A DNA stretch of 64,000 nucleotides, taken from contig NC_087252.1 in the NCBI RefSeq assembly GCF_037042905.1, positions 372,001 to 436,000 on the forward strand, given 5' to 3'. Source of the stretch: Lytechinus pictus (taxonomy: Eukaryota). Shown here piece after piece: positions 27,801 through 51,800 of the stretch. The notes under the pieces were generated by a model. It saw nothing but the letters and a program-made list of their open reading frames with translations, was not told where the DNA came from and searched no databases. The translations under genes and the position numbers were made by a program. How positions within the stretch are numbered: the first letter of the stretch is position 1; the number at the start of each line of letters is the position of its first letter.

Positions 27801-30800
27801 AGCGCATGTACGGACGTACACGAGCGATCGAGCCAGCCGAGTCTCGAGCTAGATCGCGCTGAATGCATGCAAGCTTTGGACTGACTCGGCCAGGACCAGA
27901 CGTCCCGTATTTTATTCATTTCTAAAACATTTCAGTTTTTCTTTTTTAAATATATAAAAGAAACACCAAATATCATTAGGATTTTTGTCATATGATTGGA
28001 TTGTTTTTATTTGCTTGAAGTTTGAACTTTTTCCTCTTTCTTTCTTTTCTATCTTTCCTTCTTGCCCTTTTTTGTTACATATCTATTTTTATTTCCTGAT
28101 CCTTTCTCTCTCTCTCTCTCTCTGTTCATTTTCTTTCTTTCCTTCTTTCTCTTACTTGCCTTCTTTATTACATTTTCTTTTTTTGTTTCCTTCATTCCTT
28201 CTCCCTTCCACTCGTTTTTTATTTTCGTTCTATCTCTCCTTCCATTATTATTTTTTTTCATTCTGGCCTCCCTTCATTCTTTCCTCCCTCTCTTTCCTCC
28301 TTTCTTTCTTTCTTTCTTTCATTATTTATTTCATTTTGTCCTTATTCTTTTCCCTTATACTTTCTTTCCCTTTCTTCCTTCCTTCCTGTTTTCTTCTTTC
28401 TTTCCAAGAATGAAGGAAAATTTTCTTTCCTTCATTCTTTCTTTCCTCCTCCTTTTTTCTTACTTTCTTTTTGTCTTTCTCTTCTTTGTTTTGACTTTTA
28501 CACATTTGCTCATCTTCCCTTTTCTTTTTTTTTCTTTCTATATTCAATTCAAAGAATGACAGAAACCTTTTTATCTATTTTTATTCTCTCATCCATTTAT
28601 TAGAACTTTCTTATATTTTTATTATTTCCTTCATTTTCCCCTTCATTTTTTCTTTCTTTCTTCTCAATTCATCTCTTTTCTTTCTCTCCTTCATTCTTTC
28701 GTTCACCCTCCCTTCCAATTCTGTACTTTTTTCACAAGTCTAACACTGTGTAGCCTTCTTTCTTGATCTTTTTTTTTTGTCGATTGTCCCGTATTTCATT
28801 TTGTGAAATCTGGTCACCCTGGCCAGGACTCCGCTTCAAATTCAAACCAAATAAACAATGAGTCGTCAGACTAAAATAGGCGACTTTTGTCGTCGTGATC
28901 GGCGACCAGAACAACTTGAACAAGAGTCAAGAAAAATAAATGCCAAGGGCAGCGCAAGTAAATCAAGTTCAGCCAGGACAGAAAAGAATAATTAAGAGCA
29001 AAATAATTTTTTTTTTTAAATTGGGCAAGCAGTTTTTTCTATCGGGCAAGCAAATTTTTTTATCACTTGCCCGACAGGGCAAGTGATGAATTTTTTTTTT
29101 GTAGAGGCCTGCTGAGGTAAGTGTGGATGTTGACCAGCAGGTGCAATACACCAGGGTCCCGTCTTAGAAAGAGTTACAATTGATCTGATCAACCTCAACT
29201 ATGGAAATCCATCAATGTTATATTTTTCTACACGAAGCTTGCACAATGTCCTTTGTACAACAGGAAAAAAATGAAGGTATAACCATATCAAGGAAATATT
29301 TTAAACATACATGCATTTTAGATGTTGGCATTGCTGGCTTTCCATAGTTGTGACTGATTGGAGCAATCACAAGTCTTTATAAGATGGGGCCTAGGTTTCC
29401 ACCGTACTCTTTCATGAAAAGCCACTTTGTTTTATTAACACAAGACAGCTTCATTGTCCCTGGGGCTGTCAATTCCCCTATCATCTGATTACTTTATGAT
29501 AGTTGTGATAGTTTGTACAAAAGAATGGAATAAGTTACCACAAAACTTTAGATCCAGTCCAACACTGCCCATATTTAAAAATTCATGTCGAAAATATTTA
29601 TTTGAAAGATTACAAAATATCTTAAATTGATTCTTGATAAACCATGTGTGTTGTGTGTGTGTGTGTGCGTGTTGTGTTTGTATGCATTTTCTTATTTTAC
29701 TCTTTAGATTATCATTGTAAATATGTTTTTCATCTCATTATTGTTGTAATGTACTTTATAAGGGGCCCCTCCCACAAGCTCTGCTTCTATGCCCAGGACC
29801 AAAATCCAATTGAAACCAGTTGGATTTCCAACTGGTTTCAATTGGTTTCAACTGGTTTCAATTGGTTTTAACTGGAATTTAACAATTTCCAGTTGAAACC
29901 AATTGAAACCAGTTGGGCAACTGGAAATCCTAACTGGAACCAGTTGGGTAACTGGAAATGACTTCCAATTGGAAATGATTTCTAACTGGAACCAGTTGAG
30001 TAACTGGAAATCCCAACTGGAACCAGTTGGGCAACTGGAAATCCTAACTGGAACCAGTTGGGTAACTGGAAATGTCTTCCAATTGGAAATGATTTCTTAC
30101 TGGAACCAGTTGAGTAACTGGAAATCCCAACTGGAACCAGTTGGGCAACTGGAAATCCTAACTGGAACCAGTTGGGTAACTGGAAATGACTTCCAATTGG
30201 AAATTATTTCTAACTGGAACCAGTTGGGCAACTGGAAATCCTAACTGGAACCAGTTGGGTAACTGGAAATGACTTCCAACTGGAAATGATTTCTAACTGG
30301 AGCCAGTTGAGTAACTGGAAATCCCAACTGGAACCAGTTGGGCAACTGGAAATCCTAACTGGAACCAGTTGGGTAACTGGAAATGACTTCCAATTGGAAA
30401 TGATTTCTTACTGGAACCAGTTGAGTAACTGGAAATCCCAACCGGAACCAGTTGGGCAACTGGAAATCCTAACTGGAACCAGTTGGGTAACTGGAAATGA
30501 CTTCCAATTGGAAATGATTTCTAACTGGAACCAGTTGGGCAACTGGAAATCCTAACTGGAACCAGTTGGGTAACTGGAAATGACTTCCAATTGGAAATTA
30601 TTTCTAACTGGAACCAGTTGGGCAACTGGAAATCCTAACTGGAACCAGTTGGGTAACTGGAAATGACTTCCAACTGGAAATGATTTCTAACTGGAACCAG
30701 TTGAGTAACTGGAAATCCCAACTGGAACCAGTTGGGCAACTGGAAATCCTAACTGGAACCAGTTGGGTAACTGGAAATGACTTCCAATTGGAAATGATTT

Positions 30801-33800
30801 CTTACTGGAACCAGTTGAGTAACTGGAAATCCCAACTGGAACCAGTTGGGCAACTGGAAATCCTAACTGGAACCAGTTGGGTAACTGGAAATGACTTCCA
30901 ATTGGAAATTATTTCTAACTGGAACCAGTTGGGCAACTGGAAATCCTAACTGGAACCAGTTGGGTAACTGGAAATCCTAACTTGAACCATTCAGTTGTGT
31001 AACTGGAAATCCTAACTGGTACCAATTGGGTAACTGAGATGACTTCTAACTGGAAAGATGGTAACTGGAAATGAATTCTAATTGGAACCAGTTGGGTAAC
31101 TGGAAATTATTTCCAATTGGTTTCCAATTGGAAATTTTCCAGTTACCCAACTGGATCCAATTGAAACCAGTTAATTTGCATATTATTTGCCAGTGTGCAC
31201 ATATTAATGTTTTATGAGATTAATCATCATTAACAATGTATCTATTTAATTCTTTACAATTTCAAGTACCACACTTTTTAAAGATTAGTATTTAGAATAC
31301 TTAGCAGTGAAAACCATGTTCATAAATGTTATAGATTATAATTAAAACAGATTAAAGGATAATTAGTACACCACTAACTGTTACCAAATTACATCAAATA
31401 AAAGTACATATATTTGAAGATCTTCCATATAAATATATACACATGAAAGTCTGTATTTTATCAATGCCCTTTACATTGGTATTAATAGACATATAACACT
31501 GCTTCTGTGTTGGCATGAGAAATAGTTAGTGCAAATGCTAATTAATTTGTAACTAATTAAGTTCGTTCCAACTGGAAGTTCCAATTGGATCCAGTTGGAA
31601 ACCAATTGGTTTCAACTGGTTCCAGTTGAAACCAGTTGCCTCCAATTGGTTTCAACTGGAACCAATTGAAACCAGTTGCCTCCAATTGGATTCAATTGGT
31701 TTTAATAGGGAAATTGGAACAACTGGAACTAATTGACAATAATTGCCAACTGGTTCCAGTTGCCCAATTGGTTTTAACTGGAACCAATTGGCAACTGGTT
31801 TTCAATTGGTTTTTAACTGGAACCAATTGGCAACTGGTTTTCAATTGGAACCAGTTGTTCCAATTTCCCTATTGAAACCAGTTGGCCAACTGGTTTCAAT
31901 TGGTTTTGCCCTAATTGGTTTTAACTGGATTTTGGTCCTGGGTGGGGTCCCAAACCTATCATGCATTCTCATTTTTGTTAAGCTATGTGATATGTCTCTT
32001 GTTCTTGATTGGTTTGAATAAATTTGAACTTTGAACTTTGAACTCATATCACATACCTGTTGATGCTAGCCCCCTGAAGATATCGACCAACATAAGAACA
32101 TCCATTGTCTTTGTACAGTTGAAGACATACAGAGGTTGACCTACAATACGACTCAGCTCTCTCGCAGTCTCAACACGTCCACTCAACTATGTAAATAACA
32201 TATGAATCAATAAATTAGGCTACTGTACAACATAACATTAAAATTCAATGTTTTGTGTGTTTCTCTCCATTGTCCTAAACTCTTGAACCTCGAGACAGTT
32301 TAGGAAGTATGAATGCATGACATTACAATATCTTGATAATAAGTTTTCAGGAGATCCCAATCACTTTAATCCCATCAGGTATGGTTAAAGTATTACAATG
32401 CTTGATTTCAATGAGAATTTTCATGTAAAGTTTATTAACTGTCAAAATTTGGGGGGGGGGGGTTGAAAATACACATCATAATAAAACAAACCAAGGGGAA
32501 AAGGTGATCCAGTAATGGGTTACTTTGCAAAGAGCTTGTATAGAAGCCTTTCATAATAAGCCATCTTGCAACTTTGTTAGGTTTTGATTACCTGAGCAAT
32601 ACAGATTGACTATTAAGGTAATATTGGGACAATAGCATAATTATCCAAGAAACAATTAAATAAATGAACAAAGACATGGATCATTAAAAAAGGTAAATGA
32701 AAGGGTAAACATATGAATGTAAAATTGTATAAGTAAATTATGAGATAATGTATGAAAACAACTAATCAACAAAATGAAAAAAAAAAAAAAAAAAACAATT
32801 AACTTACATTTGAGCCAACACACATGGCTGCAGTATGACTCTTTATGGTACTAGCCATGCTATAATACATCTTCTCTGTGCCTGGAAGGAAGGCTAGACG
32901 TGCTGCCGATCCTTGGTATTCAAAGCCATAGTCAAACTCTGCATCAAGGAGCTGTAAATAGATAAAATAAGGGGAAAATCATTTTAAATATGCATCAATG
33001 TTCTTTGAATGCACTCTTGCAATAAACGTATTAACTTATAGATGCAATGTTATTTTCCCCCACTTTTAATTATATATCTGTGAACTCAACATCCAAATGA
33101 GGGAACTCATGAAAAATGTGGCACGGGATGAGTTGATTGACCTTCCGCCCTCCCACCATTTCAACCTTGATTTCATTTTCGAAATACAGTTATGATCTAA
33201 AACATGATCTAATTTAATTCCAAGAATCAAAATGTATTTACATGTACATGTAGATCATAGATTTAAAGGTTTGATGTTCTCATATCTCTTGACCACAAGG
33301 TAAGGTAGCAAACCAATCCTGGGGGTCATTTCATAAAGCTATTCATTAGGAACAACTGTAAGAATCTCTCGATCCTTTTTGTTTATATGGTATGCACCAA
33401 AATGTTAATTGGCGAATGCACAGCACGTAGAAATTTTCACAAGTCATTCTGAAAGTAGCTCTTAACTTATAAACAGCTATATGTAACACCCAACAGTTGG
33501 GTGAAAATAGGTACTCTGTTGGGAATTTATTCACAGAAATTATTTTGTGCCCCAGAGACAACTGTATGCTGAAGGCATGATTAATGACTGTAGAGCACCT
33601 ATGTCTTATAAGAAAAAGTTTTAAAATCAATTCCAAAATTGGCAATGACCATTCTAAATTATTGTTGCATGCTCATACTGAAACATTTTGTTCAATGATA
33701 GTGCACACCAATGTGAATCACAATTCAATTTTATTGCAAATACACTTTTAAAAGGCTGGAGGAATCTATATAAGAGGTTATACGAACCCATCATTATTTA

Positions 33801-36800
33801 ATAGAAACAACTTGTGGATAGCAGAAAAATGAAAAATTGTTTGAATGATGGGGCAGTATGTACCTTGACTTTCAAGTTATTGCTGCTTTCATCCCAGTTG
33901 TATCTAAGCTGGCTCTTCCATTCAAAGCAATCAGCAAGCTTGCCAGTCTCATCCTGCTTCTTATCAAATCTGGGAAAATATGAAAAGAAACAAAAAATTT
34001 AAATTCCTGCTCAGGTTCAAACTCACCATATTTCCACTCCTGAAGACGGACAGTCAACCTGTCCGAAAGGTTGAGTCTCTCTACTACTCATCATCTCTAC
34101 TCGCCGACTCAAGCCAGCATCTCCTCATTAGCTCTACTACTCAAGCTGTTCTCAACTCATCAATCTTTCCTGGTTTACAGTCCTTTTCAGGACTACTTTC
34201 AAGAAAGAATACTCTACTCTCAAATCTCCACTTTCTCGCCTATCCATTTCTTCTCTTCTTCTATCCACTGTTTCTACAACACTCCACATGGTGTACCGTA
34301 AACCACATCAGCGATTGTACATGCCACCATGCAAACCTTCAAACAACATCCAATAAATATTTCATCGTTATGTACGTATTTATTAATTCATCTATCTATC
34401 CATCTATCTATTTATTTGTTTCTGTATTTATCAGTATATTCATCCACATATTTATTGTTATCATTACTGTATACACTATACACGATTATCAGGACAAAAA
34501 CAAGAATAAGAATGAGATACATACATACATGTTTGTACAGAACAAAGAAAATGAAGAGAAAATATAACGGAAAACAGAAAGAAAAAAATATAAATATCAT
34601 TGAAGGTGATTGATACCCCACCATACATGTACAATGTATAGCTGTTACCAGTACACTTGAATCAAATGGATAATGAATGTTTGTACAAAATTTTGTACAA
34701 AAGCTATGGAAACAAAACTGGGGAATTAGTTGTCCTGGGTTTTGGGCACTAGCATGCTGTTATCATGGAAATACAATTTCAAATAGATTTGGAAAATGAA
34801 CTTGCATATTTTTATCTAAAGACAAATGTTGCTGACAACTTTCATGAGCACTGGATACAAACTGGGAAAGTGGTGAGATCAGTAATGAGTTTTCCTGTTT
34901 TGGGTCAAAATATGTGGTTACCATGGCAACACAATGACAAATGAGAAAATAATGTGTCTTACACATCTTTTCATCCTTTCATATGTGGGTGGTAAATTCT
35001 GTGAGAATCGGGTTAAGAACTGATCAAGTAGGTTGAACAAGATTTTTGGCCAATTTTCATAATATAATAATTTTATTACAAAATGGCTAAACAAGCAAAA
35101 AAGAAGTCTTGCACATCAGGACCTCAGGACCAACATGTGACCCAAATCTCATGAGTATTGATTAAAAATTATGAAGTAGTTCGAACTGCAAGATTTTTAC
35201 CTATTTTTTTTGGCCATATTATATGTTGTTACCATGGCAACACAGTTTTTGACACACGCAAACAAATTTGTCTTGCACATCTTTATCTCAAAACCAATGT
35301 GTTTAGCCAAATTTCATGAGAATTGGTTAAAAACTGAGGAAGTATTTTGAACCACAATATTTTATCAAATTTTTGCCAATATACTGTTACCATGGCAACA
35401 CAATTTCCAACACATGCGAAAATGGATTTTTGCACATTTTTAACCCCATTACCAGTGTGTGTTCCAAACTTTATGAGAATTGGTTAAATGTACAACATAA
35501 TTTGCAACCAACCATCAGCCCAACTGTACAACGATTCCCCCTTTAATAAAAATAGGGAAAGAGGGAAAAAAAGGAAATACAAATGAGGGTGTACACAAAA
35601 TCCCAAATAAAAAAATATTGAAAGTATCACAACAATAAATTAGAATGAAACAGGAAACTGGGAAAGTGGAAATAACCTGAATTCTCTTTCTGAAAATCAG
35701 CCATATTTCTTTAATAATTCAATTGAATTAAAGGTCCTTCCTATATCGATGATACTGAGATGTGTTGAAATACTGTCTTACCAGGTCAGTAGACTAGGGT
35801 GCTTGTGTTGATAGAGCTGACATAACGTTGTGTGATAGGCAATACATGTACATGTATGATCATACAACCACCGATTCATGATCATTGCTTCAACAGTCCA
35901 TTGTTATTATACTGAAACATGGCAGGTCAATCAATAAAAATATCTGAAAATATGCATTCATCTGTAAATGCAAAATGCCCGATAGCTACATGTATCCAAG
36001 CACTCGCTCAATATTATTTGGACTTTGGACATGATAAATTTTTAATCTTTTTAATCTTTTCTGTGTTCAAACTTTGAGAATGTTTGCTTTGCTATTAAGT
36101 TTGGCAACAATAGGGATCGAGACTTTTGTGCAGGGTTAGCGACGGAGCATGCGCGTTTGCATGCAATTTCTTCCGGTTTCACAGTTTTCCCGTACTACTA
36201 GACATGTATACAAGTCGATCGTTCCAACACACTGTTTCTACTTACAACTAATAATTGTTCCTCATCTTGTAAAAGCCAATTACACACAATTGCAGGGGTT
36301 TATGGCATCTGAGTCCAGAATTTGACAAGTGAGTATAATTAAAACAATGAATGCAATGATATTGCAGTGTAGTCTTACCATTTACATGTAGATCTAGTGA
36401 GAGTTACCAATGTGTTATATTCATGTAGTGTTGGCTGTACATGTATGTAATGGGTCAGAGTGAAATATACAAGAATGTAATCAACATAATATTTTAACCC
36501 GACTTATAACAGAACAAAAATGAGAAAGAGGGGGAAGGTAAGGGAAGAATTCAATTGCAGACTGTCCTGATTTTATTAGGAATGTCCTGATTTTCAACTT
36601 TCAAAGTGGCTAAAAGATTCAGGATTGTTGTCCTGATTTCTGAAATTCAATTGGAGAAAAAAATATTAAGAGAAAAATTACCAATAGCAATGGACCCATT
36701 CGTACCACCAAGTCTTCAATACACCCCTGTACATGTAAAAGAGCCCAGTATTTTAAGGGTTAACCCTATCTAGACCGGGGTATTTTGGGAGTTCATATGG

Positions 36801-39800
36801 CCGGGGGGGGGGGGGGTGGGCTTCCCAGGCCCCCCCCTTGAGATTTTGGCTGTTGGCCACATGATCGCGCTGAAAACTGGCATGCAGGTTGTCTTGGACA
36901 TAATCTACAAAACTGTATAGCAATTTATTTCATGCAAATTGGTATTTAGCGATTATGCTAATTTATGCGTCATTGGTATGCGAAATCATACTTTTCCCTC
37001 TAACTCCCTAAATAAAGCTGCAATTGTTACAATTTTTGGTATAAAAACTCTTTTTGGTGTTCCTTGCATGTGTACATGAAAAAAATTGCGATATCAGAGT
37101 AATTTCTTATGTATTTTAATTTTTGGCAATTATACTTACATGTACATGCATGTATTTCCTTGTTTTTTGGACCTATTGTGTTTCAATGAAAAGTGTTTTC
37201 AATGAAATTTGTTGGGAACTCTTCTAAGATCATAAACAGCATAAAATAAATACATTTAGACCAGCAAAACTAAAAATAATCATACATTTATGATTATTGG
37301 TTGAAAACAGAATTTGCATTGACTTTGTACACGAAATCACATTTTCAAGCAATTTTTGGTCTGACATGCACTTACATAATGTTGCCTAATTTTGGAACCG
37401 CGTACATAGGTGACACAACTTTGGTCTCAAAAGTTGCGCAAGACAGGGTTAAGGTTGACAAAAATGCAGGAGCTTCAGGAGCACTGCTTTCTGGACTCCT
37501 CATGTGACCCTCATTACCTAAAAAGAGCTAATTCCTTTTAATCCTTATAAGTAGGAGTGGGCTATACATGGGTCAAAAATACTTCTTTTTTCATTTTAAT
37601 ATGCCAACAGTTTTTATTTATTCCAAGGTTGTAATGTATCTCAACATATAATGACAATATTCTTTCTCTCCTCTACCTTGTTTTACGGATTACATGTATT
37701 TGCGAAATATATCATATTAAATAAAAAAAAAATGTAATTTATCCACAGGTGCTATCTACAGTATAGTACAATGTATTGTACATACTGCACTGCATAATGT
37801 ATGTCCTTGCATTGACCACCATTTGTAGGATAAACTAGTGTCATAGAAATGACCTCTTGAATTATATGCCTCAGAAAGTGAAGATACTATACATGTATGT
37901 TTTGTCCCAGAAATTGAAGACACGTTTTGTCCAATATGCATACAGGGGGTGGAAGAGTGGTAAATATCATTAACAATGGATTATACATGTAGCTAGTCAA
38001 CCCCATATATTATGGCATTTACACTGTGGTTATTCTGTTACCATTAGGGTAACTTTGCCATCCAATTGTTACTTTCATGGAATCCTAAATTCTGATTGGC
38101 CGTTGATCATCGTTACATTATCATGGTAGTTACCTGACCCCATGAACATAGGGTTAGACACCCCAACCATGTAAGAACAAGCCTCCAAATGAAGAAGGTA
38201 TGGCTAAAAATGTGATGTAAGTACGTGTACATGATATTTATGTGCAATTTATGTTTATCATCGGGTTACATCATGTACAATGTACATGTACATCAGCTAA
38301 AAAGCAATTAAAATTCACAAGTGACAATCTAATTCTAAACCTCAGGAGCTCACTTCTATGACACGATAAATTATATAAAGGGACTTGTTATATGTCATGG
38401 TGGTCAATGCATGGATATTATACATATAGTGCATGCTGTTGAGTTCAATATACCATAATATGAGTGTCCATAGATTTCAAATTTCTTGCGTGCGTTTATA
38501 GAGGGCGTAGGCCGAGTTGAAATATAAACACACAAGAGAAATTTATGGATATGAATGATATTGTATATTAAACGATAATAAGCATGTACTATGCGTTATA
38601 TGAGATGGGAACACAGAAAAATTACCGCATAATCGTTTTCCTCAAGGTATCGATCGATGGATCACCTTATGAGGTTTTGTACACAAGCTATCGTGCAGAA
38701 ATTGCCGGTATATGCCATGATCGTGGCCATATACCGGATTACGTCATTGCAATTGACCAATCAGAAGCCTTCTCTCATACCACCCATCTTATATACATGT
38801 ATGCTGTGTCGTATGTACAATATATATATATTAGCCTGTATGGATAAATTACATTTTTTTTATTTAATAAGATATATTTCGCAAATATCTGTACAACACA
38901 ATTCTATACGAAGCTGCTTACTACATCTCAACTGGTATAGTCTAATATCCAAGAACCACGAAACTATGAAACCTAATTTTTGGCTGAAAAAAGGGTCTAA
39001 AATGTGTAAATTTAAGTAAAAATCACCTTTCAACTCTACAAATAATGGTTTAAAAGTACTAATTTTAGGAAAAACAAATTGCCTGCCCCCCACAACATAT
39101 GAATAGACACTAAAACCAGAGAAAAAGACCACCTAATAAAGAAGTTGTGGCCAAAACTTTGATTTTGGGGGATTTAAATCCCCCAAAATCACAGTTTTGG
39201 CCACAACTTCTATTTGGCGGCTATTTTGGATTTTGGCCCGGCATACTTTTTTCTCGGACCCAAGACAAAAAATATTTTCATTTCATGTTGAGATAAGAAG
39301 GTAAAAGGAATGCAAAATAACTGTTGCCACAGAAAAACCAAAAATCACCCATTTATAGCCCACTCCTATAATAAGACTGAAGGGGCTGATTCATGCAGCC
39401 CCCCCCCCCTTAACATTTTTTGCAATAAATCCAACGCACAAAATTTTCTGACACGGTCACTCGTTGACTTTTTACTTTCAAGTCTCGCGAACTTTTGAGA
39501 CCAAAATTGTGAGCCCCTGGCACATATACTTGGTTGCGTAGTTACAACATGTATGCAACATTTTGTACATGTAAGTGCATGCAGACCCAAGAATACAGTG
39601 TATGTGAATTTGTGTAAAAATCCAGCGCAAATAGTGTTTTTCTGTATCTGTATCGATCAGTCAGCAAAATTCCAGGATTGGCACATCACGCTAACTTGAA
39701 GAACATGCTACATGTACGTGTGGAGTGGCTCAAAGTATTAACTGATATTAATTTTGATCTATTCTAGCTGAAAATACGGATACAAAGAAAGAGTCCTGAA

Positions 39801-42800
39801 ATGCACCAGCTTTATGATGGATTTGTTTGAACTTTTTGGGGTTGTGTCTCGTAGATATTTCATTGAATTGGACATAGTCTTGAACGGGAATTGAGACTAG
39901 TCCATTCACCATCTTATGGTGCTTCTAGTTTTCAGTGTGGCCCAGCCTAAATCCTTTAGGGCCCCTGTAACAGCACCATCTTCTCTTGAATAGTTGTTAG
40001 TACAGAATCTCGCTGCTTGTCTTTCGATTCGTTCAAGAGAGTTGATGAGTGCCAAAATTGATAAATGTATCATTATTTTTCCTTTTACTGATTAAAATAA
40101 ATTAATTTCATCTTGTTTATGGTCAAAGTAAAGTATCCAGATTCCTATAAAGAGTTTGTGAATCAAAAATTAACATTTTAGGGGTATTATTCAGTTGATT
40201 AGAGCAAACTTCTGATTTAAAAAAAAAGTTAGCATTTCAAAATTAGCATAAATAATATTTATCATTAATTTTTTTCACAGAATTTTATCTTACAGTTTTG
40301 TAGATTATGCCATGGGTATTGTGCGTGTCAATTTTTGTCGCAATCGTGCGGTGATCATAAGGGGGGGGGGGCTGAATCATCCCACCACCCTGTTTTTATT
40401 GGTGTCAAAATAGCCCAGTCTACATGAATGTAGGTTAAAGTAAATTTCAAATTTATGAATGTTGTATGAGGTTTGGATGTATAAAATGCAAATAAACACA
40501 AAGTAACAAATCAGAAACTGAGTTATAGGGTGTATTTAATAAGGCATTTTTTTAGTGCAAACAGATACAGTTTCATCTCTACATTATGCATTTAAAATCG
40601 CTGATGTGATTTACGATACACCATGTGTAGTGTCATAGAAACAGTGGATAGAAGAAGAGAAGAAATGGATAGGTGAGAAAGTGGAGATTTGAGAGTAGAG
40701 TATTCTTTCTTGACAGTAGTCCTGAAAAGGACTGTAAACCAGGAAAGATTGAAGAGTTGAGAACAGCTTGAGTAGTAGAGCTGATGAGGAGATGCTGGCT
40801 TGAGTCGGCGAGTAGAGATGATGAGTAGTAGAGAGACTCTTCTGAAGATGGACAGTCAACCTGCCCGAAACGTCGAGTCTCTCTACTACTCATCATCTCT
40901 ACTCGCCGACTCAAGCCAGCATCTCCTCATCAGCTCTACTACTCAAGCTGTTCTCAACTCTTCAATCTTTCCTGGTTTACAGTCCTTTTCAGGACTACTT
41001 TCAAGAAAGAATACTCTACTCTCAAATCTCCACTTTCTCGCCTATCCATTTCTTCTCTTCTTCTATCCACTGTTTCTATGACACTACACATGGTGTACCG
41101 TAAACCACATCAGCGATTGTACATACCACCATGCAAACCTTTAAACAACATTATGCATTTAATTTTTATGACAGCATTTGAACATATCCATGTTTTTTTC
41201 TTCTCTCTTTAACAGTTTCAAAGAGTGCTTTGCTGAGACATACTGTGAAAACCTGTGAACGACATACACAATTCTGTAGGAACTGATCTCGTTCAAGTGA
41301 CACTTTTTCTTGTTCAATCAACATGGATCTAATGAGACAGAATGTAATTCTGGCTGTTCTGACTGGACTCGTATTGTTCTCTGTCCTGTCTTGTGCAACG
41401 AGTAATGAAATCTCTTCTTGTGTGGACAGTAATGAGGTGGAGTGTGTTGATTTTGACAACACAGACAACTATTGTAAGGTTGGAGAAAACATTTCAGCAC
41501 GGGTTGATATTAGACTACTTAAAGAGGATCTTGAATTGATCCTCTATGAACTGGAACGAGTATCACTCGTCAGCATCGATAAAACCTTGACATCTGGAAA
41601 CACTGTCAAAGACAAGAACTTTGGAAGTCGTTTCCAAGTTGCCACCAACATAAAACCAGCAGAAGAATTTGGAAAACTTGAGATCCAAATGACCTTAGAG
41701 AATTTTAAGCGGAGTGATACAACGCTGATGCATGTGGACATAAGACTCGAGAACAAGATGATTAGTACACAGGGAAAAGCATTCTTCCCAGTACAGCCTG
41801 AACAAACAATCCCAGAAGTAACAACTACAGCAGTAACTCCTAATAAAAAAGATGATGTACATGTAGCAGTATTTCAAATCCTACAGGACATGAACAATAC
41901 AACGAATGGGTTACTTGACAGAATGGACAGGATTGAGCAAACAGATAGTGAAAGCGACTTACATGTATGGCACCTGCATGAAAACCTTACAAAAGGAGAG
42001 CAAAGCAAACCTGAACATGTATATGGCATGTATGTGTACATATGTATAATGACCACCTTAATAGTGATTTTAGAAATCATGTATTTCGCCTGGAAACTGT
42101 ATGAGAGGAGGCGACCAAGGAATTCTTCACACTCTGCAAGAGTAAGTGTGCATAACCTAACTAAAACAAACATCTGTCTACAAGTACCCTTTCATGTAAC
42201 AAAATCAGGAAGTGGACTCCCTTCAATCCTGAACTCACAAGAACACAAAGCATTTGAACAGCCTGGATCCTAGTGGACAAATTTGGGATGCATGCAGTGA
42301 ATCTATAGTTAAAATGTAAATACTGTACACTGTAATATACATTCTTTAAAACTCATTTTAAATTTTGGTAACCACCCCCCCCCCTCCTTAGAAAACAATT
42401 CTGACTAGTATTCAAATTAATTAAATCATATGATATTGTATGCAATAAAACAGTTATGATGCTAATGGCTTTGATTCTTTCAAAGTGCTTCATTAAATAA
42501 ATTTTGATAGTATGGAAATTGTTGATCATCATGGTAGTATAAAATCGGTAAAGGAAATAATCTGTGGTCTTATGATGTGGCAAACTGAAATTGCAACGTT
42601 TTGACTGCACCTGCTAGTCTTCGTCAGGCAATGAGGTGGACAATCGCTGTGGTGCCTTTTATACCGTAAGCCGCGTGCCATCGGTGCCGGAACTGCCGTG
42701 CTACAATTGGTCGGAGTAACCGACCAATTGTAGGCCGCGGATGGCGCGATCGCTGGGCCCTAAATCCCATCGGCTGCGGGCCGCATGGAAAGCGGGCAAT

Positions 42801-45800
42801 TTGCGGACGTTGTTATCAGCGGCAGCTGTACAAATACTAGTGTGATTAGATGTGGACGTCGGAGGGTGATTCACCGATGAGCATCAGGCGGTCATAGGGG
42901 GAGCATGCCGGCGAATGGTCGGAAGCCATTCCTCGGGGATGTCAATGCTGTTATCCCTGTTAACATTATTCGGATGTAGGTGGATTTGGATAGCCTCTTT
43001 AACATGCCATGTGTACCAGTGCTTATCCCGCGCTATGCAGCTTACCTCGTCCCAATTGGGAGGGTGCTATGCAAGCCAAGCATGTTCTGCTAATCCCCAA
43101 CTATCTATGCGCCGGTGCTCGACATCTCAGGGATGTTCTAGCATTCTTTCGCTAACGGGTCTGCCCGTTTCCCCAATATAAACCTTGTCACAAGCACTGC
43201 ATGGTATCTTGTAGATAACGCTATCGAGTCTACCGGGCAGCGTGGGGTCTTTGGGGCACACTAGCTGTTTAGACTTGAAAACGGCGTGTATGCTATACTT
43301 CTCTAAGTGTCGGCGGAGCTGGCAAGAAATAGAATTGACAAACGGTAGAACAACGGTAGACTTGCCTTGCACAACTTCTTTATCGGTGGCGTTCTTCCTC
43401 TTGGTTACGCAGTTGAGAAAGGAGCACGGGTAACCATGGGAAATGAGAGCAGAAGCAATGCATTGCTTCTCAGCGGCGGCGGATTGTGGCTTCGATACAA
43501 AGCGCGATGCCCTGTCATAAAGGCCTTTAACTACCGTACCCTGTGTTTGACGGACTGGAGATGATGCGAATCATAAGCTAAATATTGATCTGTGTGCGTA
43601 GGTTTCCTTTACCGGTTAAGATAAAGTTTTCAGGAAATTGATATTTATTTTGATTGGGTGCCAATCCACTACTTTAAAATGGGTATTCATCCTATTTATA
43701 TATTGTATCAAGCATGGCATTGGCCAACATATAACCAGTCGTTAACAAACTTGATGGTTACTACATTTTTGAAAGGTTGAAGTGTCAGATAATGATGAAG
43801 TGTAATTCACAACTGCAAGCAGAATAATGCTCTTTTATTGTAAAAACAGAAAGAGCATCTTTTCAAAACAATGTATATCAATCAGAACATTGGCAAATTA
43901 ATTGGATCGAAAACTTTCAGAGATAAATCTATGATTTTATATTAACAAGGTAATGTATAATGAACAAGATTGTATAGCAATTATATTGTCAAAAGTAATT
44001 GACACTGCCATCAACTGTTTCATAATTATTACCATCAGACTGTATGTACAACTACCACATTATCTTAATAAATCTGTAAAGCGGGTAGAATCACTGTCTT
44101 TATTGAGCAGTAGTTAAAAGCTGAGTATTTTCAAAATCTGCATAAATGTACCTGTTAACATAAAATACAGGCATTAATCAATTATCATGATCTTATTTTA
44201 TAACACATCTTTATCACATATTTGTCATCATTTCTGTAGGTGTCACGTAATCTGGTAGACAGAAGTGTCAATATTTTGGTATGGTTGGGCACTGATGGAA
44301 AACGACCAATACAAGAAGACCTTGACAAACGGATCCAGAGGGAATACAGCATAATCAATATACCACCAGAACAAACTGCCATCATTTCAGGCCAAGATCC
44401 CAAATCATCATGTCCTGTAGAAGGAGAGCCACTGATAAATAATGACAAATGTACATGCAGATTTGTGCCTGGCAGGTATATAAATATGTAATGGCTACCA
44501 AGGATCTATCATCTAGCAAAAACTAAACCTAACGAAAACACATAAATAATAACTTTTTCCTAGAGGCAACTTTCTACTAATTTACTACACCTGAGGCTTG
44601 TCAATGATATACATACTAAATATGAGAGAAAGTTGCCAAAATGGAAAATATTTTCTTTTTTTTTCATTTGTAAGGGATAGGCCTATGTACATATTGTACA
44701 CATTGTAAATAACTTTAAAAGTCTATTCAAATACATGTATATAAAGGTCTATAGTATATTGAAAATTTTAACATGAAAACAAATGTTGCATTTTTACATG
44801 AAAACATTGAAAGTATTGGACTAAGTGCCCTTAATGACAAATTGTGTAGGGGACCCATGCAGGGACCCATTGCATAAAATATACCATTATGGTAGCTTTG
44901 GTATGCAATGGTTACTTTCATGGAATCCTTGATTTTGATTGGCTGATGAGTATTGTTACCGTGGTAGAAATTACCAATGGATAGCAAAGTTACTTGTACT
45001 ATACTTTGGCCTGCATTCTGAAGTTTTAAAGTTAAAGATTTAAAGTTACGGTTCAACTATGGAGAGCCAATCGAAGCACAAATCCCTAACAGTCCACATT
45101 CAATTATTAACTCATTTGACACCCAAATTGCTCATAATTGTCTGGGAATGATAACTGAAGTATTTTTCTTCATTATGAAAGCAAAATGAAACCAAATAGT
45201 AAACATAAGAAATATACAATATTTTTTTTTTGTATTTTGGCTTCCCATAGTTTTAGCACTGAGTTAGACCATGGTCTAAGTTAATCCTGACTTCAAAATA
45301 CGGGCCTTTATTTGCAAATGGGCCCCAGGAGTCGGTTTTTGTTACTTTTATAACCTCCAAGAATGACCCATATATAAACATAATCGATTAATATTAATAT
45401 TACATGTATCTTTTCATTGCAAATAAGTACTGTACCATATCATTATCAATATTGGTACAAATGCTAGAAATGTTTTCTTTCATTCATTTATTTCTCGTCT
45501 TCTCTCTTGTCTTGCCAAGATTGGTTATTCGTTTGTCATCATTGTCATTGTGATTTGTCATAATTGTAGTTGATTTCTTCTGATTTATCTACCTAGTAGT
45601 CCCAAGCAGGCCAACAAGCTGATTCAACCTTTTCAACTGCCAATACTGAATTTACTTAGAATGGTTACAACAATTCACCTTTCATTCGCTTGTTTTTAAA
45701 ATACATCATTATAGTTTGGTTTAATATTGAAGTACCATCTAATTCCATTCAGTGTACTAAATTTAGGAGTGAATAATTTTTTTCTTTCCTGACATACACA

Positions 45801-48800
45801 TTTTCTCATAGCTGCCCAGAACTAATATCACCTTTGCACTTTTATCATTATGTAATACCATTTGAATTTTGAATTTAGATATGGAAAAGTTTGTGTAATT
45901 TCTTGATTGTTTTGTAACAATGCTTATTGGTTGATTTTATGTGTATTTTTAGTTACTGTTTTGTAAAATTCATTTAAGATACTTACGAGCTGCATGTTTT
46001 ATCAAGTCTTGAATCTTGAAAGCAATTCATGATTACATTTTTTTATGCAAATGCAGAACTTCTAGATCTATGATGCTTTTTGTTGGTATTACAACTGTCC
46101 TTCATTTTACAGTCATGAAATCATTGTTTGCTGTTAATGGTGGGGGATACTATTATCACCTTTGCACTTCAATCATTGTAATACCATTTGAATTTTGAAT
46201 TAAGATATGGAATTGTTTGGGTATTTCTTAATTTTTTGTAAGGTCTTTTTCTGTTGATTATATGTAGAAAACTGGATTAGCACTCCTTGCAACCCCACCC
46301 CCCACAGTCTTTTATTGGACATGTGTATTCACAATTTTCTATCTTAATCTAATTTGTTTTATGTCCCTACTGTATATATGTATATATATAACATTTTATT
46401 TATTATTTTCTTATCTGCATTTTTTTTTAAAGCAAACTATTGATATTCTTCCTACTTGTGTCTTTTGCATTTTTACTGTAAAAAAGGTGTTGTTGAGTTT
46501 ATTCTGATTTGTTTTAACCTCATTGGTAATGTATATGAATGAATGTATTACAGTCATACTTCTCTTATTATCCGGCCTCCCCTTATCCGGATCTCTCTAT
46601 TATCCGGACGCCTTTAAATTGAACTGACACTGCAGTGAATACTGTGTGTACGCCCACTATATTAGATAATGTGTAGCTACTACATGTATAGGGGAGGTAG
46701 CTGCATGTGTTTGATATTGGGTCTCCCAGATCCGGATAAATCTCTTATCCGGATTGGTGCTGGTCCCAACGTGTCCGAATAAGAGAGGTCTGGCTGTAAT
46801 TTTGTTTGTGCCTTTCAGTGGAAAGAAAAAATAAAACTTTTCTAACAGTGTTATTTTGTGTGTAGATTTCTATTTCTGTGGAAATACTAAAGTTTCCTCA
46901 AAATCTCTTATAAAGTCAAGGGAGAAATCATAACACATTCATTACAAATAAAAAAAAAATCAGTTCTTAAACAAGCTAAAATAAGACAGGGTTTACATGT
47001 AGAATAAAAAAAATTGTATAGATCTCCTAATAGAGACCATACAAAAAAAATTACATTTTTTACGTCCCACAAAATAACAAACACAATATTATACGTTTTA
47101 CTTGCATACATGTATATATATTTATCAATGCTAATGCAGACAAATTCTTTTCAAGATGCACATATAATTTCTATGGATGTATTCAGCAAAATATACATAG
47201 TCATCGACACCACACCATACAGATACAATATACAGAGGGAGTGCAAAAAGAGAAACAAGACCAATGTAGAGAGTGAGGGGTGAAAGAGAGAAAGAAAAAA
47301 AGGAAAGATAAGGAAAGAGGGGAGACTTTTGAAGTGTAATAAAGAGATGTCCCGTAAGTCAGGGTAATGATAATATCAGGGCCTGATGGGGGAACAGATT
47401 TAGGAAATGAAGTGGTTATCCTGGATACATAAACTGTTATTATTATAAATATTATTTTCATCATATTCATCATCATCATCATCATCATCATCATTATCAA
47501 CAACATCATCATCATCATCACCATATCATCATCATCATCATCATCACCACCACCATCATCATCATTATCACCACCATCATCATCTTTATCAACATCATCA
47601 ACATCATCATAATTATTATTACTATTATTATTAGCAATGATCATAGAACATTTTTCTACCATTGATTGCATTGACTACAATGTACAATCAGTCATGAAAA
47701 ACAAGCAAACAGTTAATCGCTAACCTTTGTGTTACAGAACTGGACTATTTATCCTTTGATTTTCAACCGTAAAATTGAATCCTGTTTATTCATGCTTTTT
47801 CATATTTCATAAGTTACATTCAAACAATCTCAAAGGAAAAAAGAAGTTTAAACTAGATACACACAGATTCATAGAAGAGATTGTTGCAATTAGAATGAAA
47901 AATTTCATTTTATAAACTGCATTAAACCCTCTTTCAGAACTTTCTCAAAATGGATGCCAAGCCAAAGTATGTCACCCCCATTCCCCCTCCCAAACAGGGC
48001 ACCATGCTAGATATAGTTTGGCAGGGAAAAGAAGGTTAACAAAGTCTGAATTTTACGAACTTTCACACTTAATGACAGGGATAATAGCAGGGATCATGCT
48101 AGCTTAAGATATATTAAATTGTGAAGTCATAGTTTAACATTTCATCGAGGATTTATTATTCACAATTCGTGATCATTGATACTGAAATATGCAATATAAT
48201 GTTTCCCCATAATAAATCCAGAATATCGTTGCAAAACTATTAGACTCTAAGATATCTGGCTGTTTTTATCAGCTACATGTACATGTATATTAGGTTGCTT
48301 TTCATAGTTATGAGCTATAGACAATGGGATTTACATTCAACCAATTTTCAGCCTCCTATTAGAGTACCCAAATTCCATGACAACTAATTTCCTAATGAAC
48401 ATTCCACTAAATGGTATAGGGGTGTTTTACTTACCTACTTATATATACTTCCTATTGATGATAAGAAAAGGGAGATTGAAATCAAACCAGTTTTTGCCCC
48501 ACCCTTATATTAACAGTGAACTCCAAATTTACATTCTATTATGAAATATAGGGGGTTAATCTAACCTGTTATTACATCCCTCTCATGGGCCATGAGGGAA
48601 ATCAGGTTGAAACTAAACCAGTTTCCAACCCCTCTAGTCAATTACAAAATCACATTATATCTATTATCTTAGAACTATTCCATTCTGAGATATAGGGGTG
48701 TTCTGCTTACCTGTTCATTATAACCCTCTGATGGGCTATGAGGGAGATCAGGTTGAAATCAAACAAGTTTACAACCCCTCTATACTAGAAGTGGATTAAA

Positions 48801-51800
48801 AAATTACACTACATTAATACCATGGTCACATTTGCTCTACGGCGGCCATACGGCGAGTCGAAAACAGCCGTTTTATTAATTTTAATTCAAACCATCTATA
48901 TACAGCTGGTACAAAAATGTTAAAACGGCTGTTTTCAACTCGCCGTACGGCCGCCATAGAGTAAATGTGAACATGGTATTACTATCTTAGGACTATTCCA
49001 TTATGAAAATTAGGGGTGTTTTGCTTACCTGGTGATTACATCCCTTTGATGAGCCATGAGGGAAATTAGGTTACTAATCTTCTGTATCTGAGCAGGGAAG
49101 AGGAGAAGCTTCAACTCGGTCCGATCGACCTGTTCCTCAACGACGACCTTGACCTTTGGCCTCTCCGGAGGAAGGACGACCTTCATGGTGTCCACAGGAC
49201 GGCTCTTTATTTCACCAGCTGAACAAGGATAAAAGATAGTATACAAATAATGAATGTTCATGAGTGCAATGGACAGAATACTTCATGAGGTGAAAGATGA
49301 AATGATCCATTCAACGAGGCGTAACCGATTTGAATGGATCATTATTTCATCTTTCACCGAATGAAGTATTCTGTCCATTGTACGAATGAAAAACATTCAT
49401 TATTTGGTTTATATGACACCTAAATTTTTTTTTTTCATATGAAATTCATGAATTTTGATGCAAAACATGCTCATGCAGTGCAAGTTTGGTCTGTTGATTG
49501 TTATGTCACTACAACACGCGCACTGCTGGTGCTTGAGCTTGGTGCGCGAGTGCAATGGACAAAATCGTATGGATCCAAAATTGCATGATGAATGGATCCA
49601 AAATTGCACAGTTGATGACGTCATTGCAAAATGGGCTGAATGAACGATATCAAACAACCAATCAAATCACAAGGATCAATCTAGGTGTCATATAATAAAG
49701 AAAATATCCGTCATACATGTAATAATAATCTGAACATGTGATTGGTCCACACCTCGTCATGTGACCAAAGATAGTTCCAACCAATGACACAAAATTAACG
49801 AAAATGCCATGAATCCCGACATCATGATGTCACAAGCCGGGAATAGTACCCTGAGCCGTGATTAGTTACAGCTTGATAAACATGGCTTAGGGCCATCGTA
49901 TGGAGATCTTTAACAGAGAGCTTGCATACACGCAGTGAGCAATCAACTCAATTTTCATTAACAAGTCCCCATTCAATAACCGGGATTCCTTACTGTTATT
50001 ATATTCAGTGACATTTCCCATCAGTTGTATTCAATGATAGTACCGATGACAGATATCAACAAAATATATCAATCTCAGTGATGGAAATGCGACAATTTGC
50101 GTAGGCTGTGAAATGATATTGCCTTCCCTCATAAAGACCATTATTGACCATTTCAAAATTTTCATGCAATTTTTTGTTTTATTGCTGCAGCAGAGATTTT
50201 TTATGTTGGCATTGCTGGCTTTCCATAGTTGCGGTTGATCTGATCAATAGCAACTCTCTCTTTAAGACATGGCCCTGTTACCATTCTCAAACCTCAATAA
50301 AAATACTTACTGACATCACTAGCCTCTTCATTGATCACAGAGTGCATACTGCCCTCCTCTTGGATGGGAGTGGCAGGTTGAGGGATTGCTGGTTCGTTAA
50401 GACTCCATTGTGAACCTCGGTATGAGTGGGAGCTCTGTCTGCCAGTCTGTGAGACGACCGTGCTGTTATTATCCGCAGCGGAATTATCAATGTTGTTATT
50501 TGCTGGAGGAGAAACAGAGATGATCATCAAGTAAGGTTCATATTACATTCACTTAACCATTTGGAGTAAATGAACGATAACTAATTGAATAAAATGCCCT
50601 ACACATTGAAACAACACACAAATTCACACCTCACCATATAGTAAAAAAAAAGGCACAAGAAATAAAGAAATTCTTAGTATATTGTATACCAAAAAGATTA
50701 ATAAACAGGCACATTGAATCAGCTCTGATTGAATAAAATTAAGTGGAAATAGTAAAAACTTAAGCAGTGATCTGAGATCAAATTTTGATTTTTACCAAAC
50801 TTTCACTGAGCTTTCAACCTAACCGATTCAAGAGGACACAACACTGAGACTTCCCCTCCCGTTTCTTTAGGTATTCAAATTCTTACCTTCTTTCCTGAGT
50901 TCTTTCCTAAGTCTTGCTTTCTTCTCTTTCTCATCTTCAATTCCTTTCAGCATCACCACTGCTGATTGGATGCTAGTATTCATCTTAGTCAAGATATCCT
51001 GAAAATAAGACCATGAAATAGATAATAATAATCAGTTCTTGTATAGTGCAACATTATACATAACATCTCTATGCGCTTCCAAAGGCCTTGGATACTATTA
51101 CCCAGGCTGTAGATCAAGCAGCTAGCTTCCATCACTCGGCATTTCAAGGAATAAATTCCTGCCAGGTACCCATTCACCTCACCTGGGTTGAGTGCAGCAC
51201 AATGTGGATAAATTTCTTGCTGAAGGAAACTAGGCCATGGCTGGGGTTTGAACCCACGACCCTCTATTTCAAAGTCTGGAGACTAATCCACTGGGCCACA
51301 ACGCTCCATATCAAAATGTCATCTCCAATGCTCAAAAACCCTTGGAATGATCTCAAAGGGAATGGACAAAGTGTATACACTGTGTGGAGGCATGCATAGA
51401 TATGGTGACTGGGGTAATAATGAATCAGAAAAGTGCTTAGAGACATTGTTCCAAGGTATTAAGTGCTATATAGAAATGGAATATTATGATTATCAACCCT
51501 TATGGTCCTGGGTTATTTTGATTCTTGTCACTGTCCGGTCGGAAAGGGGATTGATTATACCCCCTCCTAAGATCTCAGCCTTGGATTGTGTGCTCGTGAC
51601 AAAACATTCGTAATTTTGGGTCTGACATGCACTTACATAACAATGTGTATTTTCATAACCACATACCCGGGCGTCACAACTTTGATGTCAAAAGTTCCTT
51701 GAGACTTGAAAGTAAAATGTCAGCGAGCCATGGGGCCCAACAAATTCGTGCGGTGCATTTATAGTGAAAAATCCTCATAAAGTTACCTTGAGTGAGTCTT

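What the first reader, a model, noticed from the sequence alone, without database searches (positions are those of the whole stretch)
42020..44491. Nested protein pairs an intramembrane acidic residue with a C-terminal YINM motif
The TM segment (…[18 protein letters not shown]) contains a Glu, and the predicted spliced tail ends GRYINM*. Established: YINM is the PI3K p85/Grb2 docking motif of DAP10 (CD28 has YMNM), and DAP10-type adaptors pair through an acidic TM residue. Inference: a possibly convergent invertebrate activating or costimulatory receptor. Reading through the 42142 donor gives a different 43-aa tail with no Tyr motif, so splicing could switch signalling on or off.
Basis: inference. 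Interest (0 to 1): 0.7.

Follow-up and report, generated by a model that had tools for sequence, protein, structure and literature searches.

The report
Two-tailed sea urchin Ig receptor gene
A sea urchin gene lying inside an intron of a dynein-like gene encodes a predicted surface protein with one antibody-like domain and two alternative inner tails, a switch likely shared with distant relatives, whereas its DAP10-like YINM word and membrane glutamate are missing from those relatives and are untested.

Summary
The gene lies antisense inside one 15-kb intron of a dynein-heavy-chain-like gene. The spliced product equals RefSeq XP_063959377.1 (Lytechinus pictus, uncharacterized, 356 aa, ends YINM), and the 316-aa read-through form is also on record.

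It is not a DAP10-type adaptor. It has a ~205-residue ectodomain: a predicted V-type Ig fold (pLDDT 85, Z 10.9) without the usual Cys/Trp pin, then a heptad stalk.

Seven distant relatives (20-27% identical) were found. None of the 5 with a whole membrane helix has the Glu, and none of 6 tails has YxxM, but only one tail is surely the spliced type and no close orthologue was reached.

What looks shared is the two-tail layout. One relative exists as two records that split just behind the membrane. One continues V-S, as a read-through donor would. The other matches our last exon best of 3,045 window segments, at a PP..GQxP stretch upstream of YINM.

Best reading: an undescribed single-V receptor family with switchable tails, and YINM a late add-on of unproven use. 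Precedent exists (Botryllus FcoR, Hydractinia Alr). No read-level splice evidence was obtained.

The parts
33970..49028 (-). Single intron (15,059 bp) of the dynein-heavy-chain-like host gene, which holds the nested gene on the opposite strand
   Evidence: Flanking exons join in one open frame across GT...AG; host exons hit Pfam DHC_N2 and AAA_6 and an nr protein named dynein heavy chain-like of L. pictus
41190..41215 (+). Likely splice acceptor in front of the first coding exon, implying an unlocated upstream untranslated exon
   Evidence: Pyrimidine tract plus AACAG|; inference, no transcript seen
41323..41400 (+). Start codon and likely signal peptide (residues 1-26)
   Evidence: Hydropathy peak at residues 7-25; in-frame stop upstream; relatives start alike
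41401..41802 (+). Predicted V-type Ig-like domain (about residues 27-160), lacking the canonical Cys-Trp-Cys pin, with an N-terminal Cys pair (33, 41)
   Evidence: AlphaFold2 with 7 sequences: pLDDT 85.1, pTM 0.79; best Z 10.9, rmsd 2.5 over 108 residues to antibody V domains, also CD8a, Dpr/DIP; no Trp, Cys only at 33, 41, 51
41881..41943 (+). Heptad repeat in the stalk (residues 187-207), likely a short coiled coil
   Evidence: My own heptad score reached by 4 of 1000 shuffles; also in 4 of 6 relatives (1, 3, 18, 29 of 1000), not in P0005 or P0008
42022..42093 (+). Single membrane helix (residues 234-257) with Cys241 (42043-42045) and Glu251 (42073-42075)
   Evidence: Hydropathy. A Cys at the like place in P0007, P0012 and P0013, which are one close group. 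Glu not kept in 5 of 5 whole helices
42142..42273 (+). Splice donor GTAAGT at 42142, and the 43-codon read-through tail of the 316-aa form
   Evidence: GC 40.2% like the coding exons (39.6%, 40.5%) against 30.3% right behind the stop
42444..42449 (+). AATAAA, candidate polyadenylation signal of the read-through form
   Evidence: use not shown
42610..43600 (-). GC-rich decayed insert in the nested gene's intron, likely the 3' end of a Penelope-like retroelement (approximate ends)
   Evidence: GC 51%; broken frame with a GIY-YIG-like stretch (label recalled, no Pfam hit)
44240..44491 (+). Last coding exon of the 356-aa form (83 codons plus stop)
   Evidence: Spliced product identical to RefSeq XP_063959377.1; best match of a relative's tail among 3,045 window segments
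44360..44401 (+). [14 protein letters not shown] (residues 314-327), the part of the long tail that matches relative P0013
   Evidence: Score 36; reached by 11 of 5000, 65 of 20000 and 41 of 20000 shuffles
44476..44488 (+). Possible internal donor (GT at 44476) and the terminal YINM codons (44477-44488)
   Evidence: not used in the RefSeq model; YxxM in 0 of 6 relative tails

Best explanation
The gene encodes a predicted cell-surface protein with one V-type Ig-like domain, a stalk that likely dimerises it and one membrane helix, and it likely makes two forms that differ only in the inner tail by either splicing at 42142 or reading through that donor. The two-tail choice looks old and family-wide, so the outer domain would bind the same ligand while the tail decides which cytoplasmic partner is engaged. 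The piece of the long tail that is kept is the PP..GQxP stretch. The YINM end and the membrane Glu are most likely late, lineage-specific additions and not the core of the mechanism. Shown: gene structure, both proteins on record, relatives, tail match. Predicted: fold, coiled coil. Inferred: surface location, dimer, regulated tail choice, any binding partner. No immune role is shown.
For: Both forms are on record, and the spliced one equals my splice. Fold. P0013 and P0015 are identical for 257 residues and split 5 residues after the first basic residue behind the membrane (ours: 16). P0015 goes on V-S, the translation of GTAAGT; so do P0012, P0006 and our 316-aa form. P0013's other tail scores best against our last exon: rank 1 of 330 stop-free segments in 42142-49000 (36 against 29) and rank 1 of 3,045 in the window (36 against 33). 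The V-S tails look coding: P0015 and P0006, only 33% identical in the Ig domain (P0013 vs P0006), share an alignable stretch (0 of 10,000 shuffles with V-S removed). Our read-through has exon-like GC and stays open 43 codons, as 21 of 201 donor-like sites of the window do for 42 or more. Glu in 0 of 5 whole helices, YxxM in 0 of 6 tails.
Against: No transcript reads were laid, so neither junction nor the poly(A) site was seen directly, and the support behind the RefSeq models was not visible. The relatives are unnamed protein records; their DNA and whether they come from RNA or DNA are unknown, so the V-S tails could be gene calls running into introns. Our own read-through tail matches the relatives' only weakly: local tests 1443, 5023 and 3989 of 10,000; 17 of 201 donor-started peptides score as well, itself included; only the donor-anchored ungapped test against P0015 gave 109 of 20,000. 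The last-exon match rests on one relative and 14 residues, is one of 12 comparisons, and leads by 3 points window-wide; for P0008 the exon ranks 3 of 330, for P0005 14 of 330. The 7 relatives are about 4 independent lines (P0007, P0012, P0013 are 78-89% identical). Loss of YINM in distant relatives says little about close orthologues.
Confidence: 0.55

Rival explanations
1. One reading: the long form is an activating or co-stimulatory receptor whose terminal YINM is phosphorylated and binds p85 and Grb2, the short form is a silent competitor, and the membrane Glu pairs with a basic partner.
For: Exact YINM, the DAP10 motif (PMC3192283, passages); 0.22% in shuffled tails. Single V domain, likely dimer stalk and YxNM is the CD28 layout, and the helix holds a YxxxxT word (Y239-T244), described as the CD28 dimer motif (PMC11599192, passages). 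Tail swaps by intron retention change Tyr motifs in Botryllus FcoR3/4 (PMC12582321, passages).
Against: Glu, YxxM and YxxxxT are not kept in the relatives. The residue before Tyr is Arg with no acidic residue nearby, unlike the CD28 consensus [D/E/V/I]-Y-M-[N/D]-[M/I/V/T]. The Glu lies in the inner half of the helix. The Met is the very last residue; its effect on SH2 binding is not known to me.
Confidence: 0.17
2. The terminal YINM is a Yxx-bulky sorting signal read by clathrin adaptors, so tail choice sets how fast the protein leaves the surface and does not switch signalling.
For: Fits the (G)YXX-phi consensus, which usually sits at a protein's end; CD63's C-terminal signal also ends in Met (PMC5297682, passages). 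Relative P0012 also ends in a Yxx-bulky word (YEQL) and P0008 has YMPL inside its tail.
Against: No Gly directly before the Tyr; 95 residues from the membrane; Yxx-bulky arises in 57% of shuffled tails; P0012's word lies in the V-S type tail, not in the matching exon; P0013's spliced-type tail has none.
Confidence: 0.13
3. Only the spliced form is a real product; the 316-aa record reflects unspliced or incompletely processed RNA, so there is no switch.
For: The donor is a perfect GTAAGT, and a retroelement-like insert lies in the intron. Our read-through tail is not significantly like the relatives' in local tests. About 10% of donor-like sites stay open this long (21 of 201).
Against: The 316-aa form is held by NCBI/UniRef and the long form is called isoform X1. 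AATAAA lies 170 bases behind its stop. The read-through has exon-like GC. Relatives' V-S tails are alignable with each other at 33% domain identity.
Confidence: 0.12
4. The internal donor at 44476 is used, so that YINM is not the usual end of the long form.
For: CAG|GTATAT differs by one base from a host-gene donor-like site at an exon end, CAG|GTATGT at 32056.
Against: The RefSeq model ends in YINM. My pyrimidine-tract filter found only 2 acceptor candidates in 44500-49000, 3.5-4.2 kb away, giving 4 and 19 residues.
Confidence: 0.03

Closest known systems
RefSeq XP_063959377.1, uncharacterized protein LOC135155009 isoform X1, Lytechinus pictus (P0003)
   Same: Identical to the spliced product; the gene is already modelled in public annotation.
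   Different: The record carries no domain or function; a full-text search for the locus id found 0 papers.
DAP10 (HCST) adaptor
   Same: YINM word in the tail and an acidic residue in the membrane helix.
   Different: DAP10 has a short ectodomain, a near-central Asp pair and is a disulfide-linked dimer serving NKG2D (PMC1440944, PMC3192283; passages). Here: about 205 residues outside with a V-type domain, Glu in the inner half, no Pfam match.
CD28/CTLA4/ICOS family
   Same: One V-type domain, stalk, single helix with a YxxxxT word, tail with YxNM.
   Different: No PPP loop motif, no Cys/Trp pin, flanks of the Tyr differ from the consensus, no sequence match. PMC11599192 (passages) found no CD28 homologue in S. 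purpuratus. At most a convergent layout.
Hydractinia Alr proteins
   Same: Invertebrate single-pass proteins whose V domain lacks the canonical Cys pair, with alternative tails by splicing and Tyr motifs (bioRxiv 10.1101/2022.03.04.482883, passages). An Alr2 cluster is among the Atlas structure look-alikes (TM 0.65, under the naming bar).
   Different: Alr proteins have several Ig domains plus an Fn3-like fold and sit in a polymorphic cluster; this gene has one domain and no paralogue was found in the searches.
Botryllus FcoR3/FcoR4 co-receptors
   Same: Ig-superfamily type I proteins whose Tyr motifs are swapped or removed by intron retention in the tail (PMC12582321, passages).
   Different: Multi-domain with Sushi, ITIM/hemITAM motifs; that paper states the DAP10-type YxNM was not found on any FcoR. 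No sequence link was found.
Mouse 2B4 (CD244) long and short isoforms
   Same: Two splice forms with different tails and opposite effects (PMC12506779, passages).
   Different: Vertebrate SLAM-family receptor with ITSM motifs; analogy only.

Membership tests
DAP10-type adaptor | Short extracellular part | tested here: not met
   About 205 residues outside, with a folded domain; feature from PMC1440944
DAP10-type adaptor | Acidic residue near the centre of the membrane helix | tested here: not met
   Glu251 is 16 of 21 in the best window, 7 residues before the first Lys; helix limits come from hydropathy only
DAP10-type adaptor | YINM/YxxM in the tail | tested here: met
   Residues 353-356 of the spliced form
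DAP10-type adaptor | Disulfide-linked homodimer | not testable with these tools
   Cys241 and a heptad stalk allow it; needs a non-reducing gel
DAP10-type adaptor | Assembly with a partner that has a basic membrane residue | not testable with these tools
   No partner known
DAP10-type adaptor | Sequence match to a described family | tested here: not met
   0 Pfam families at E up to 1 for both forms; 0 PDB sequences at E up to 10
CD28/CTLA4 family | Single V-type Ig ectodomain | tested here: met
   Predicted model, Z 10.9, rmsd 2.5 over 108 residues
CD28/CTLA4 family | PPP motif in the CDR3-like loop | tested here: not met
   No such motif in the domain sequence; feature from PMC11599192
CD28/CTLA4 family | YxxxxT in the membrane helix | tested here: met
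   Y239-T244 by letter; near the outer end and not kept in relatives
CD28/CTLA4 family | Tail consensus [D/E/V/I]-Y-M-[N/D]-[M/I/V/T] | tested here: not met
   R-Y-I-N-M: core YxNM fits, positions -1 and +1 do not
Ig superfamily, V-type fold | Ig beta-sandwich that superposes on V domains | tested here: met
   233 of 48,161 chains at Z 8 or more, the listed rows nearly all Ig domains; 349 Foldseek hits at E up to 0.001; the Atlas's own model gives TM 0.66 to MERTK Ig
Ig superfamily, V-type fold | Canonical Cys-Trp-Cys pin | tested here: not met
   No Trp in residues 27-165; Cys only at 33, 41, 51. Alr domain 1 lacks it too and is still filed as V-set
Hydractinia Alr family | V plus I-set domains plus Fn3-like fold | tested here: not met
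   One domain, then a stalk
Hydractinia Alr family | Clustered, polymorphic gene family | tested here: inconclusive
   No paralogue in the window or in protein searches; no whole genome was held
(G)YXX-phi sorting signal | Tyr-x-x-bulky residue near the protein's end | tested here: met
   YINM at the C-terminus; no Gly at -1
(G)YXX-phi sorting signal | Binds AP adaptor complexes and drives uptake | not testable with these tools
   Needs an uptake assay

The most novel reading that the evidence does not exclude
An undescribed family of single-V-domain dimeric receptors carries an old built-in switch between two inner tails, and in Lytechinus the long tail has gained a working YxNM motif. That would make it an independently evolved CD28-like co-stimulatory receptor of an echinoderm, turned on or off by one splice choice.
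Probability: 0.15. Interest if true: 0.7.

Novelty: new variant of a known kind. Interest (0 to 1): 0.36.

Why it matters
If the tail switch is real and family-wide, this is a small, tractable receptor family in a genetically workable sea urchin (that L. pictus is workable is recalled) for asking how invertebrate Ig receptors gain and swap signalling tails. If YINM also works, it would be a PI3K/Grb2-type receptor motif outside vertebrates, in a group where CD28 homologues were not found (PMC11599192) and of a type reported absent from Botryllus FcoRs (PMC12582321). As it stands, atypical V domains and splice-swapped tails already have invertebrate precedent and no function is shown, so the interest is moderate.

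Tried and rejected
- No whole genome is held for this window, so paralogues and urchin p85/Grb2 genes could not be searched.
- Sequencing runs: no RNA holder listed. No read-level result on the junctions was obtained.
- Single-sequence AlphaFold2 model of the domain: pLDDT 42.5, not used.
- Two-copy complex of residues 27-266: no answer, score 0.01 against a mark of 0.32, alignment not used.
- Word-based protein search with the 316-aa form found only itself among 901 candidates; the profile search found 4 among 4516. No named orthologue from another urchin appeared; only near lengths were searched.
- Metagenome scans: 126 and 64 pattern hits, none confirmed. The wide alignment had no usable pattern.
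- PDB sequence search: 0 hits with the protein, 1 chance hit (E 0.12) with the profile.
- Viral fold search gave Ig-like viral proteins at TM about 0.5 or less, read as shared fold only; Atlas feature hits at 0.87-0.92 were leads only.
- P0007 ends ...ILEY inside its membrane helix, which at first looked like a kept Glu. It was left out of the count because P0012 (89% identical in the domain) runs on there without an acidic residue. P0014 (a fragment) and P0009-P0011 (99-100% copies of P0008) were also left out of counts.
- P0013 has an Asp at the outer edge of its helix (3 of 21) and P0005 has Arg and Lys inside; neither was counted as the same feature.
- Earlier-finding look-ups by place, sequence and relatives gave nothing.
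Full report
What is there. The window is from the sea urchin Lytechinus pictus, as shown by public names of proteins it encodes. Most of it is a dynein-heavy-chain-like gene on the minus strand (Pfam DHC_N2 and AAA_6). Two of its exons join in frame across one 15,059-bp intron, 33970-49028. The finding lies inside this intron on the plus strand. The first coding exon runs from ATG 41323 to a perfect donor at 42142; the last exon is 44240-44491. The spliced 356-aa protein is identical to RefSeq XP_063959377.1, 'uncharacterized protein LOC135155009 isoform X1'. The 316-aa read-through form is in the same cluster, from NCBI/UniRef; that it is a second RefSeq isoform is my inference.

Anatomy. Signal peptide (1-26), a domain of about 135 residues, a stalk with a heptad repeat at 187-207 (4 of 1000 shuffles by my own score), one membrane helix (234-257) and a 98- or 58-residue tail. 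No Pfam family matched. A full HMMER search of 1.84 billion representatives gave 4 relatives at E 1e-10 to 9e-4; a profile search added 2 and a cluster look-up added variants. All are unnamed records, 20-27% identical in the domain. With 6 of them as alignment, AlphaFold2 gave a confident model (pLDDT 85.1, pTM 0.79). It superposes on V-type Ig domains: best Z 10.9, rmsd 2.5 over 108 residues, with CD8a, TCR delta V, Dpr/DIP and CD200R among near-tied rows. The Atlas's own model agrees (TM 0.66 to MERTK Ig). The domain has no Trp and no canonical Cys pair, only Cys 33, 41 and 51. Hydractinia Alr domain 1 is a published case of such a pin-less V domain (bioRxiv 10.1101/2022.03.04.482883, passages). 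A shared fold shows no function.

The YINM and the Glu. YINM is the DAP10 motif that recruits p85 and Grb2 (PMC3192283, passages). In 200,000 shuffles of this tail YxNM arose in 0.22% and YxxM in 3.0%; some Yxx-bulky word arose in 57%. DAP10 is a short-ectodomain dimer with an Asp pair near the centre of the helix (PMC1440944, passages). Here the ectodomain is about 205 residues and Glu251 is residue 16 of the best 21-residue window. Of the 7 relatives, 5 distinct whole helices could be read (P0005, P0006, P0008, P0012, P0013/P0015); none has an acidic residue in the middle or inner half. P0013 has an Asp at the outer edge and P0005 has Arg and Lys. P0007 stops inside its helix at ...ILEY and was left out. 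None of 6 tails has YxxM or YxN. The limit is real: only P0013's tail is surely the spliced type, and these relatives form about 4 independent lines. No close orthologue was reached, so a recent, working YINM is not excluded. The layout (one V domain, stalk, YxxxxT in the helix, YxNM) is nearer CD28 than DAP10, but the PPP loop and the Tyr flanks of the CD28 consensus are missing, and PMC11599192 (passages) reports no CD28 homologue in S. purpuratus.

What the family seems to keep. P0013 and P0015 are identical for 257 residues and part just behind the membrane. P0015 continues V-S, which is what GTAAGT encodes; P0012, P0006 and our 316-aa form continue V-S at the like place. P0013's other tail aligns without gaps to our last exon, [14 protein letters not shown] against LPPQSITYIKGQRP (11 of 5000 shuffles, one of 12 comparisons; 65 and 41 of 20,000). 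Scored against every stop-free segment of 14 or more residues in six frames, its best match is that exon: rank 1 of 330 downstream of the donor (36 against 29) and rank 1 of 3,045 in the window (36 against 33). P0013 ends two residues after this stretch; our exon runs 29 residues further to YINM. The V-S tails of P0015 and P0006 align with each other (0 of 10,000 shuffles with V-S removed) although their domains are 33% identical, which non-coding intron would not be expected to do (inference). Against this: P0006 versus P0012 is not significant (3807 of 10,000), our own read-through tail matches the relatives only in one donor-anchored test (109 of 20,000) and not in local tests, and the DNA behind these records was not seen. 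Our read-through has exon-like GC (40% against 30% behind the stop) and an AATAAA 170 bases after its stop.

How it most likely works. A surface protein, likely a dimer through its stalk, binds an unknown ligand with its V-like domain. The cell chooses between splicing at 42142 and reading on to an intronic end, which changes only the tail. The long tail's kept element is the PP..GQxP stretch; YINM and Glu251 are likely later additions. I put this at 0.55, a working p85/Grb2 motif at 0.17, a sorting signal at 0.13 ((G)YXX-phi consensus, PMC5297682, passages), no real short form at 0.12 and use of the 44476 donor at 0.03. No read-level evidence on splicing was obtained, so the isoform ratio, the first exon and the 44476 donor stay open.

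What is known. Tail switching by intron retention is described for Botryllus FcoR3/4, where YxNM was not found on any member (PMC12582321, passages); alternative tails for Hydractinia Alr1 and mouse 2B4 (PMC12506779, passages). I found no paper on this gene or family in the held library: locus id, 0 papers; topic searches, seen as listings with abstract starts only, showed none that appeared to treat it. I opened no supplements; gene tables of L. pictus expression studies could list the locus, and most subscription journals are not held.

Verdict. A real, already modelled but undescribed gene; a new variant of a known kind (invertebrate Ig-superfamily membrane protein with an atypical V domain and alternative tails). 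It is not a DAP10 or CD28 family member. Interest 0.36.

Noticed in passing
P0015 and P0006, read-through-type tails: Both carry a word that fits the RVxF phosphatase-1 docking pattern (RVKF, KVSF; pattern recalled) inside the stretch they share. P0012 and our 43-aa tail do not fit it. In those relatives the short tail may be the one that binds a partner.
   Followed up: partly
window 42610-43600, minus strand: GC-rich (51%) decayed insert in the nested gene's intron, reading like the 3' end of a Penelope-like element with a GIY-YIG-like stretch (label recalled; no Pfam hit).
   Followed up: partly
window 40588-41151: A repeat with a 96% copy at 34037-34349 is arranged as an inverted pair centred near 40839, ending about 60 bases before the nested gene's 5' acceptor.
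   Followed up: no
window 27650-27900: CpG-rich stretch (observed/expected 1.19 for 27501-28000) with promoter-like words inside another dynein intron; it might be the start of this or another gene.
   Followed up: no
window 22064-34007, minus strand: The public L. pictus protein P0004 (558 aa, named dynein heavy chain-like) begins just inside the intron that holds the nested gene and matches the window's exons at 85-100%, while the window's frame continues upstream across that intron. That record seems to cover only part of the host gene and may come from another allele or assembly.
   Followed up: partly
window 42043-42045 (Cys241) and P0007/P0012/P0013: A Cys near the outer end of the membrane helix is shared with one group of relatives and could link a dimer.
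   Followed up: no
window 29829-31857: A 2-kb complex tandem array of 17-394 bp periods inside a dynein intron.
   Followed up: no
P0012, C-terminus: Its tail ends in an acidic run followed by YEQL, like a hemITAM or a sorting signal, so terminal Tyr words occur more than once in the family, in different tails.
   Followed up: no
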